In this document: positions 6,201 to 6,240 of the stretch, in pieces | How the letters are laid out: the number at the start of each line of letters is the position of its first letter | Numbering within the stretch: position 1 is the stretch's first letter | Source of the DNA: Escherichia coli | GTDB lineage: Bacteria; Pseudomonadota; Gammaproteobacteria; Enterobacterales; Enterobacteriaceae | Strand: one strand, 5' to 3' | NCBI RefSeq assembly: GCF_044324785.1 | Contig: NZ_CP172127.1 | Length of the DNA: 64,000 nucleotides | Made by a program: the position numbers and the translations under genes | Notes under the pieces: model-generated | Database searches by the model: none | What the model was told of the DNA's origin: nothing | Seen by the model: only the letters and a program-made list of their open reading frames with translations

Positions 6201-6240
6201 GCTAAGGTTGAAGGGGCGTTCCAGCCCCTTCAACCTTAGC
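6201..6240 (-). terminator. Perfect 16-bp inverted repeat (8-nt loop) immediately 3' of the yabP-like gene; possible terminator or protein-binding palindrome
   Basis: gctaaggttgaagggg / ccccttcaaccttagc are exact reverse complements; abuts the stop codon of the minus-strand ORF. No clear U-tract follows. Confidence 0.4.

What the first reader, a model, noticed from the sequence alone, without database searches (positions are those of the whole stretch)
6201..6240. Perfect 16-bp inverted repeat abutting the yabP-like stop codon
gctaaggttgaagggg-cgttccag-ccccttcaaccttagc forms a 16-bp perfect stem with an 8-nt loop, which is unusually long and perfect for an intrinsic terminator, and no clear U-tract follows on the coding strand. 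It may be an RNA stability element, a protein-binding palindrome, or a recombination hotspot marking the edge of the AT-rich islet.
Basis: seen in the sequence. Interest (0 to 1): 0.25.

Follow-up and report, generated by a model that had tools for sequence, protein, structure and literature searches.

The report
Breakpoint palindrome capping espY1 mRNA
The perfect palindrome is real, but it is a single-copy scar left where a broken insertion sequence was joined to the end of the E. coli effector gene espY1, and it now forms the hairpin at which that gene's mRNA ends; this is a tidy but ordinary feature.

Summary
The inverted repeat is confirmed and is slightly longer than reported: arms 6201-6217 and 6224-6240, 17 bp perfect, with a 6-nt loop. 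It folds at about -37 kcal/mol on either strand and is the longest perfect hairpin in the window (about 3e-5 expected by chance).

The window is the E. coli rapA-rluA-[islet]-djlA-lptD region. The "yabP-like" ORF is the T3SS effector gene espY1. The left arm and loop are ordinary coding sequence of a truncated Tn5-like (IS4-family) transposase. Homology to intact copies of that IS stops at the centre of the palindrome. The right arm is therefore an inverted copy made at the truncation junction.

The palindrome occurs once per genome, in 2071 of 5426 complete E. coli genomes. It lies inside the presence/absence islet, not at its edge. About a dozen genomes have lost it through a 44-bp deletion between TCA microrepeats, and espY1 is still annotated intact in two of the four I examined.

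Published K-12 3'-end mapping places the yabQ (= espY1 3' part) mRNA terminus inside the descending arm. No U-tract follows on that strand. The best reading is an accidental 3' stem-loop that acts as an exonuclease barrier, or possibly a weak terminator. There is no evidence of selection. Interest is low.

The parts
6201..6217 (+). Left arm of the palindrome. It is coding sequence of the truncated Tn5-like transposase (codons around ..TAKVEGA..; TAQVEGAY in intact copies).
   Evidence: Aligns base for base with four independent IS copies, including full-length ones (A1; A4). That region of the IS protein is Pfam Tnp_DNA_bind, E = 4e-15.
6218..6223 (+). Loop, GTTCCA. At least 6218-6222 is still IS-derived (the IS copies read GTACCG). 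The homology breakpoint lies here or within the next 3 nt.
   Evidence: A1 and A4. megablast matches to paralogues end at window 6226. A loop variant, GTCCCA, occurs in some strains.
6224..6240 (+). Right arm: an exact inverted copy of the left arm, absent from all intact IS copies (which continue CCTGATACGTAACCCGT). It is the templated filler at the IS|espY1 junction.
6201..6211 (-). Mapped 3' terminus of the espY1/yabQ-sense RNA in K-12: peak 59309-59319, dominant position 59315, which is window position about 6205.
   Evidence: PMC10687069 Suppl. Data 3, LB RNAtag-seq: signal 0.777; adjusted p = 3e-4, 8.5e-8 and 0.024; longest U run 2. Coordinates were mapped through L005.
6241..7029 (-). 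espY1, a T3SS effector with pentapeptide repeats. It is intact here at 262 aa and is split into yabP + yabQ in K-12.
   Evidence: RefSeq annotations under the matches. Pfam Pentapeptide, E = 2.6e-7. Orthologues.
5868..6223 (+). Remnant of a Tn5-like IS4-family element. Its left terminal inverted repeat is CTGTCTCTTGTACATAA at 5868. The transposase N-terminus starts at 6047, carries an in-frame stop and a frameshift, and is truncated at about codon 58.
   Evidence: A full-length relative of about 1.54 kb with both terminal repeats is in Nissle 1917.
6241..6247 (+). TTATTCT, a partial T-tract after the hairpin on the + strand. It overlaps the espY1 stop codon on the other strand.
   Evidence: Terminator scan. 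Tail score -3.83.
6189..6232 (.). The 44 bp deleted in variant lineages. The deletion lies between TCA at 6186-6188 and TCA at 6230-6232. It removes the left arm, the loop and 9 nt of the right arm.
   Evidence: Metagenome contigs L146 and L150. Closed genomes 14EC033, GDSC2227PM and A16 were read directly; CUWW06 is inferred from a 100%-identical full-length match to the deletion allele.
5883..5904 (+). Hairpin plus T-tract inside the IS left end. It serves as the rluA terminator, so little + strand transcription should reach the palindrome.
   Evidence: The TRS rluA primary 3' end at 59610 (-), window position about 5910, has signal 0.99.

Best explanation
The palindrome is a breakpoint scar that now works as the 3'-terminal stem-loop of the espY1 (yabQ) mRNA.

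Origin (sequence shown, mechanism inferred). A Tn5-like IS next to espY1 was truncated inside its transposase gene. At the break, the last IS bases folded back on themselves; a plausible primer is ..GCC-3' pairing with GGC at 6215-6217. About 14-17 nt were then copied in inverted orientation, and the end was joined to the DNA just past the espY1 stop codon. This created a perfect 17-bp palindrome.

Function (3' end shown in K-12, mechanism inferred). Transcripts of espY1 run through the stop codon and fold into the -37 kcal/mol hairpin. No U-tract follows, so the hairpin most likely does not act as a canonical intrinsic terminator. Instead it probably blocks 3'-to-5' exonucleases after termination further downstream, leaving a stable end a few nucleotides 3' of the GC-rich core of the stem.

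On the other strand, the hairpin plus TTATTCT could also stop residual transcription from the IS remnant from running antisense into espY1.

Nothing shows that the element is under selection.
For: - The left arm and loop align with four independent IS copies, and homology ends at the palindrome centre. All IS copies continue with unrelated coding sequence (A1; A4).
- The region is the Tnp_DNA_bind domain of the transposase.
- A gene-conversion tract from a paralogous IS in strain Z1323CEC0014 ends inside the left arm, as expected if homology stops there.
- The element is single-copy: one place per genome in 2071 of 5426 genomes.
- The K-12 yabQ primary 3' terminus is at 59315, inside the descending arm, with a longest U run of 2 (PMC10687069).
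- On the - strand the hairpin is very stable and the tail score is only -1.80.
- This matches the class described by Dar & Sorek: stable stem-loops without U-rich tails at the ends of Rho-dependent transcripts, protecting them against PNPase and RNase II (PMC6061677 abstract).
- The natural 44-bp deletion leaves a 3' UTR with no stable fold: -13.7 kcal/mol, z = +0.77.
Against: - The 3'-end evidence is one data set from one condition. It comes from K-12, where the gene is a split pseudogene with low expression, and a strong hairpin could bias library ends.
- The held tables of another 3'-end study list no end here.
- The RNA immediately downstream is G-rich, not rut-like. C/G is 0.41 in the first 78 nt and reaches only 1.3-1.5 at +81 to +178. 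Rho involvement is therefore unsupported.
- There are no compensatory changes. The neighbouring IS pseudogene is equally conserved, so conservation says nothing about function.
- About 12 of roughly 2083 islet-bearing genomes lack the palindrome, and espY1 is still annotated intact in two of the four examined. It is therefore dispensable.
- The fold-back origin is inferred from the sequence pattern only. No pre-truncation allele was found.
Confidence: 0.6

Rival explanations
1. It is a neutral scar. The palindrome is a junction by-product with no biological role, and any RNA end there is an incidental or technical consequence of a strong hairpin.
For: The origin at a breakpoint. No covariation, and no more conservation than the adjacent pseudogene. 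Loss by deletion in about a dozen genomes, with espY1 still annotated intact in two of those examined. espY1 itself is often a pseudogene, as in K-12 and N3.
Against: A -37 kcal/mol hairpin directly after a stop codon must affect RNA 3' processing physically. A terminus is mapped there in three replicates.
Confidence: 0.3
2. It is a + strand intrinsic terminator. The hairpin plus TTATTCT stops transcription that starts in the IS remnant, or reads through from rluA, and so protects espY1 from antisense transcription. This could be an additional role rather than an exclusive one.
For: The terminator scan calls it on the + strand: 17 pairs and 5 T in 8. The tail score of -3.83 is above a commonly used cut-off. 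The genes are convergent.
Against: rluA transcripts already end at the IS-end hairpin about 300 nt upstream, with signal 0.99. No K-12 minus-strand 3' end is listed at about 59272-59279 in the tables I could read. The T-tract is interrupted, and the 17-bp stem is longer than in typical terminators. No promoter-like site was found in the IS remnant on the + strand.
Confidence: 0.25
3. It is a canonical Rho-independent terminator of espY1.
For: A stable GC-rich-topped hairpin immediately after the stop codon, and an RNA end at the hairpin.
Against: There is no U-tract on that strand: the tail is AGUAGCGUGGG, scoring -1.80, and the longest U run is 2. The mapped end lies inside the stem rather than 7-9 nt downstream in a U run.
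Confidence: 0.08
4. It is a protein-binding operator, or a member of a dispersed palindromic repeat or mobile-element end (REP/BIME-like, MITE, recombination site).
For: Perfect dyad symmetry. It lies between an IS remnant and a horizontally acquired gene.
Against: One copy per genome and no other copy in the window. No Rfam match. One arm is transposase coding sequence and the other is its copy. It is not at the presence/absence boundary. The true REP/BIME array is in the empty-site allele instead.
Confidence: 0.04

Closest known systems
[quoted passage not shown]
   Same: An energetically stable stem-loop right after the gene, no U-rich tail, and a precise steady-state RNA 3' end at the structure.
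   Different: Rho dependence is untested here. The sequence immediately downstream is G-rich rather than rut-like. The stem is unusually long and perfect because it arose by inverted copying, not by gradual evolution. The mapped end is 4 nt inside the base of the stem.
REP/BIME elements as 3'-UTR terminator-stabilisers between convergent genes (e.g. bioRxiv 10.64898/2026.03.23.713779)
   Same: An extragenic palindrome between convergent genes that can both limit read-through and stabilise the upstream mRNA. In strains without the islet, a REP/BIME array occupies this same rluA-djlA gap.
   Different: This palindrome is single-copy, has no REP consensus, and is derived from IS coding sequence.
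Snap-back (fold-back) templated insertions at repair junctions, and quasipalindrome template-switch mutations (SD-MMEJ: PMC2943611, PMC5728401; E. coli quasipalindrome template switching: PMC7202029)
   Same: The new sequence at a junction is the exact reverse complement of the adjacent bases, consistent with self-primed copying from a short microhomology.
   Different: Those cases were observed experimentally, and SD-MMEJ was shown mainly in eukaryotes. Here the event is only inferred from a natural allele, and the enzyme and the context (replication versus break repair) are unknown.
Palindrome-associated deletion between short direct repeats (slipped mispairing across a hairpin; from my own knowledge of the E. 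coli palindrome-instability literature, not checked here)
   Same: The 44-bp loss has 3-bp TCA repeats at its ends, one inside and one outside the palindrome, and destroys the hairpin.
   Different: It is a natural polymorphism in about 0.6% of islet carriers. No rate was measured.

Membership tests
Intrinsic (Rho-independent) terminator, espY1 (-) strand | GC-rich stem-loop directly downstream of the gene | tested here: met
   17-bp stem, 10 G-C pairs, -37.1 kcal/mol.
Intrinsic (Rho-independent) terminator, espY1 (-) strand | U-tract immediately 3' of the stem | tested here: not met
   Tail AGUAGCGUGGGAUGA, score -1.80. The TRS table gives a longest U run of 2.
Intrinsic (Rho-independent) terminator, espY1 (-) strand | RNA 3' end within the U-tract, about 7-9 nt after the stem | tested here: not met
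   The dominant end at 59315 is 4 nt before the last stem base, 59319.
Intrinsic terminator, + strand | Stem-loop followed by a T-tract | tested here: inconclusive
   TTATTCTG has 5 T in 8 and scores -3.83, but the run is interrupted and the stem is atypically long.
Intrinsic terminator, + strand | Mapped RNA 3' end on that strand | tested here: inconclusive
   None is listed in the stored parts of the tables. The tables are truncated, and upstream transcription ends at about 5910.
Protective 3' stem-loop of Rho-dependent transcripts (Dar & Sorek) | Stable stem-loop not followed by U-rich sequence, with the steady-state 3' end at it | tested here: met
   Class definition from the PMC6061677 abstract.
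Protective 3' stem-loop of Rho-dependent transcripts (Dar & Sorek) | C-rich, G-poor rut region immediately downstream | tested here: inconclusive
   C/G is 0.41 in the first 78 nt. There is a modest C>G bubble (1.3-1.5) at +81 to +178.
Protective 3' stem-loop of Rho-dependent transcripts (Dar & Sorek) | Read-through increases on Rho inhibition, and the 3' end depends on PNPase/RNase II | not testable with these tools
   Needs bicyclomycin and exonuclease-mutant RNA data.
REP/BIME or other dispersed palindromic repeat | Many copies per genome sharing a consensus | tested here: not met
   Exactly 1 place per genome in 2071 genomes. No second copy in the window.
Boundary of the presence/absence islet | Coincides with the end of the segment missing in empty-site strains | tested here: not met
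   The empty-site allele diverges right after the rluA stop (5833/5834) and rejoins at the djlA stop. The palindrome is about 370 bp inside the islet.
Templated fold-back junction (snap-back or template switch) | The novel junction sequence is the exact reverse complement of the adjacent retained sequence, starting where homology to the parent ends | tested here: met
   A1 and A4. 17 of 17 bases are complementary.
Templated fold-back junction (snap-back or template switch) | Priming microhomology, and a parental (pre-event) allele | tested here: inconclusive
   GCC/GGC pairing is possible, but the exact breakpoint (6222-6226) cannot be resolved. No pre-truncation allele appeared in 31 metagenome contigs or in the complete genomes sampled.

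The most novel reading that the evidence does not exclude
The palindrome is a natural fossil of microhomology-primed snap-back synthesis in E. coli: an alt-EJ-like or template-switch repair event that truncated an IS. By chance it built a ready-made RNA 3' stem-loop for a virulence effector gene, showing that repair scars can create functional transcript ends in one step. The rare 44-bp deletion lineages would then be natural knock-outs for testing this.
Probability: 0.4. Interest if true: 0.35.

Novelty: new member of a known kind. Interest (0 to 1): 0.22.

Why it matters
This is modest. It explains why the hairpin is far longer and more perfect than evolved terminators: it was copied, not selected. 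It identifies the "yabP-like" gene as espY1. It shows that in islet-bearing E. coli all three transcript ends between rluA and djlA are supplied by imported or accidental hairpins that replace the REP/BIME array of empty-site strains. The natural deletion alleles offer a simple test of whether a 3' stem-loop matters for expression of a T3SS effector. None of this changes current understanding of termination or RNA decay.

Tried and rejected
- **Wasted genome scan.** I scanned genome contigs with a pattern of 15 specified bases, GGTTGAAGGNGCGTNCC. The hits were chance matches in unrelated phyla, and none carried the palindrome or the IS. The pattern was too short for 298 Gb, and this used the only scan of that collection. 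Other Escherichia species were therefore not examined.
- **EspY1 protein search.** It returned only E. coli and Shigella orthologues that differ in repeat number. It said nothing about a native 3' flank.
- **Other 3'-end data.** The held tables of Adams et al. 2021 (PMC7815308) list no 3' end at 59,26x-59,32x. No supplements are held for Dar & Sorek 2018, Herzel 2022 or the Nanopore study. The RNase-targetome tables (PMC10667835) have nothing at the hairpin.
- **Rfam with permissive thresholds.** Only two sub-threshold chance hits.
- **Covariation.** None was possible. The arms are invariant, apart from singleton mismatches in low-coverage contigs and the Z1323CEC0014 conversion tract.
- **Second IS end.** I looked for a right terminal repeat that would make the islet a composite transposon and found none in the window.
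- **Two inverted IS copies.** I rejected the idea that the palindrome is the remains of two inverted IS copies, because complementarity stops exactly after 17 nt on the outer side.
- **Deletion allele as ancestor.** I rejected this because the extra 44 bp are contiguous with IS homology.
- **Survey of inverted repeats in Proteobacteria (PMC5941160).** It does not mention this locus.

Full report
**Observation**

The window carries a perfect inverted repeat at the stated place. The arms are 6201-6217 and 6224-6240, 17 nt each, 100% complementary and 6 nt apart. As RNA it folds at -37.3 kcal/mol on the + strand and -37.1 kcal/mol on the - strand, with z-scores of -8.0 and -7.0. It is the longest perfect hairpin in the 64-kb window, where about 3e-5 stems of that length are expected by chance.

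The - strand ORF 6241..7029 ends with its stop codon directly against the right arm. On that strand the tail is AGUAGCGUGGG, with no U-tract. On the + strand the tail is TTATTCT, a partial T-tract. The T-tract scores are -1.80 and -3.83 respectively.

**Context**

The flanking genes are rapA, rluA, djlA and lptD of E. coli. The closest complete genome is strain N3, at 99.9% identity.

- The "yabP-like" ORF is annotated in RefSeq as the T3SS effector EspY1. In K-12 it is split into yabP and yabQ. It contains pentapeptide repeats.
- Convergent with it lies a pseudogene annotated as "IS4/Tn5 family transposase DNA-binding protein".
- The segment from the rluA stop to the djlA stop (5834-7323) is a presence/absence islet. 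2076 of 5426 complete genomes have it. In 3183 genomes rluA and djlA are about 116 bp apart, separated by a REP/BIME array.
- The palindrome therefore lies inside the islet. It sits where GC content drops from 0.53 to 0.33, not at the polymorphism boundary.
- It is strictly single-copy: one place per genome in 2071 genomes.

**Origin**

I aligned the window with paralogous copies of the same IS, including near full-length copies of about 1.54 kb with both terminal repeats in Nissle 1917 and NDM2.

- The IS left end starts at 5868 with a Tn5-like terminal repeat, CTGTCTCTTGTACATAA.
- Homology runs through the transposase start (6047), through the left arm and into the loop.
- Every IS copy reads GCTCAGGTTGAAGGTGC GTACCG CCTGATACGTAACCCGT. 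The window reads GCTAAGGTTGAAGGGGC GTTCCA GCCCCTTCAACCTTAGC (A1; A4).
- The left arm is thus ordinary coding sequence (..TAQVEGAYRLIRNP..) of the Tnp_DNA_bind domain (Pfam E = 4e-15; NCBIfam IS4/Tn5 N-terminal domain).
- The right arm exists only in the islet and is the exact inverted copy of the left arm. It is followed at once by the espY1 stop codon.

Two observations fit homology ending at the palindrome centre. megablast matches to paralogues stop at window 6226. In strain Z1323CEC0014, a gene-conversion tract from an NDM2-like IS ends inside the left arm, between 6204 and 6215, and breaks one base pair.

The simplest account is inferred, not shown. The IS was truncated. The broken 3' end snapped back on a 2-3-nt microhomology (GCC on GGC at 6215-6217) and copied about 14-17 nt of itself. 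It was then joined to the espY1 3' end. This resembles quasipalindrome template switching in E. coli (PMC7202029) or the snap-back synthesis described for SD-MMEJ (PMC2943611 and PMC5728401).

**Variation**

- Ten divergent islets, down to 92.7% overall identity, have an invariant palindrome except for the Z1323CEC0014 conversion. The adjacent IS pseudogene is just as conserved, so this says nothing about selection.
- Of 31 metagenome contigs fetched through the espY1 3' end, 22 have the identical palindrome. A few have a loop change (GTCCCA) or singleton stem mismatches in low-coverage contigs. None shows a compensatory change.
- Two contigs lack 44 bp (6189-6232). Three closed genomes that I read directly (14EC033, GDSC2227PM, A16) carry the same deletion, and CUWW06 matches the deletion allele at 100% identity over its full length. 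The deletion lies between TCA repeats, one outside and one inside the palindrome, and leaves only ACCTTAGC.
- espY1 is still annotated as intact in 14EC033 and A16.
- About 12 of roughly 2083 islet genomes lack the palindrome (2083 against 2071 matches).
- The deletion allele's 3' UTR has no stable fold: -13.7 kcal/mol, z = +0.77.
- The palindrome is therefore mildly unstable and dispensable for keeping the gene.

**Function**

The TRS study lists, for K-12 in LB, a "Primary" yabQ 3' terminus on the + strand. The peak is 59309-59319 and the dominant position is 59315. The signal is 0.777, and the adjusted p-values in three libraries are 3e-4, 8.5e-8 and 0.024. The longest U run is 2 (PMC10687069 Supplementary Data 3).

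Using the K-12 coordinates of locus L005, the palindrome is at 59280-59319. The terminus is therefore at window position about 6205 on the - strand. That is 4 nt inside the base of the stem and about 5 nt 3' of its GC-rich core.

This matches the class described by Dar & Sorek: stable stem-loops without U-rich tails at the precise ends of Rho-dependent transcripts, which protect against PNPase and RNase II (PMC6061677).

There are caveats.

- The evidence is one data set, on a poorly expressed pseudogene.
- Another study's held tables list no end here.
- The first 78 nt downstream are G-rich (C/G 0.41). Only a modest C>G region follows, at +81 to +178. Rho involvement is therefore not supported by sequence.

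On the + strand the element passes a simple terminator scan. However, rluA transcripts already end at about 5910, at a hairpin that belongs to the IS left end (signal 0.99). No + strand end at the palindrome is listed.

**Comparison and verdict**

- The element works like a protective 3' stem-loop.
- It fails the U-tract and 3'-end-position criteria for a canonical intrinsic terminator on the espY1 strand.
- It is not a REP-type or other dispersed repeat.
- It has no Rfam match.
- It is not the islet boundary.

Of the three interpretations, the RNA-stability reading is the best supported. The "recombination" reading is right only in the sense that the palindrome is a rearrangement scar that has itself been deleted in a few lineages. 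The protein-binding reading has no support.

The finding is an ordinary kind of element with an unusually clear origin. Novelty: a new member of a known kind. Interest is low, about 0.2.

**What led nowhere**

- The EspY1 protein search gave only orthologues.
- Several papers hold no supplementary tables.

Noticed in passing
window 5868-5915: The hairpin plus T-tract at 5883-5904, which looks like the rluA terminator, lies inside the left end of the Tn5-like IS (the terminal repeat starts at 5868). K-12 data place the primary rluA 3' end there (59610, window position about 5910, signal 0.99). Paralogous IS copies have the same hairpin but a weaker T-tract (GATTTGTGATG against GATTTTTTGTTT). 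In islet-bearing strains the terminator of a housekeeping gene is therefore IS-donated.
   Followed up: partly
window 7266-7323: A 58-bp segment next to the djlA stop includes the hairpin at which djlA mRNA ends in K-12 (58244, window position about 7276). It recurs at about 91% identity beside yjhR and a GNAT gene in other E. coli strains (H26-H30; L008; alignment A3). It may be a small repeated or mobile module that forms the right edge of the islet.
   Followed up: partly
window 50931-50970: The second-longest perfect hairpin in the window: 16-bp arms and an 8-nt loop (ATGATATTGGCAGAAA / TTTCTGCCAATATCAT). It lies inside an 816-aa ORF (49526-51976, +).
   Followed up: no
window 6295-6341 and 6372-6466: 15-bp tandem repeats inside espY1 (the pentapeptide-repeat region) vary in copy number between strains. 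EspY1 orthologues range from 233 to 286 aa. This is where most islet variation is concentrated (77 variable columns in 6414-6453).
   Followed up: partly
L007 (strain Z1323CEC0014), equivalent to window 6047-6215: The IS remnant in this strain's islet has been overwritten by sequence matching a full-length paralogous IS (NDM2-type). The conversion tract ends inside the left arm and introduces a C·T mismatch at 6204.
   Followed up: yes
protein list (EspY1 orthologues): Many database names for EspY1 orthologues are 'UDP pyrophosphate phosphatase'. This does not fit a pentapeptide-repeat effector and looks like a propagated mis-annotation.
   Followed up: no
L009 (E24377A) 535-650, the empty-site allele of window 5834-7323: In strains without the islet, the rluA-djlA gap is about 116 bp of REP/BIME palindromes. 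The islet replaced them entirely rather than inserting beside them.
   Followed up: partly
L001 (strain N3) against window 6241-7029: In the closest complete genome (99.9% identical), espY1 is annotated as frameshifted. The window has an intact 262-aa ORF identical to a protein seen on 241 contigs. The gene evidently flips between intact and broken states among near-identical strains.
   Followed up: no
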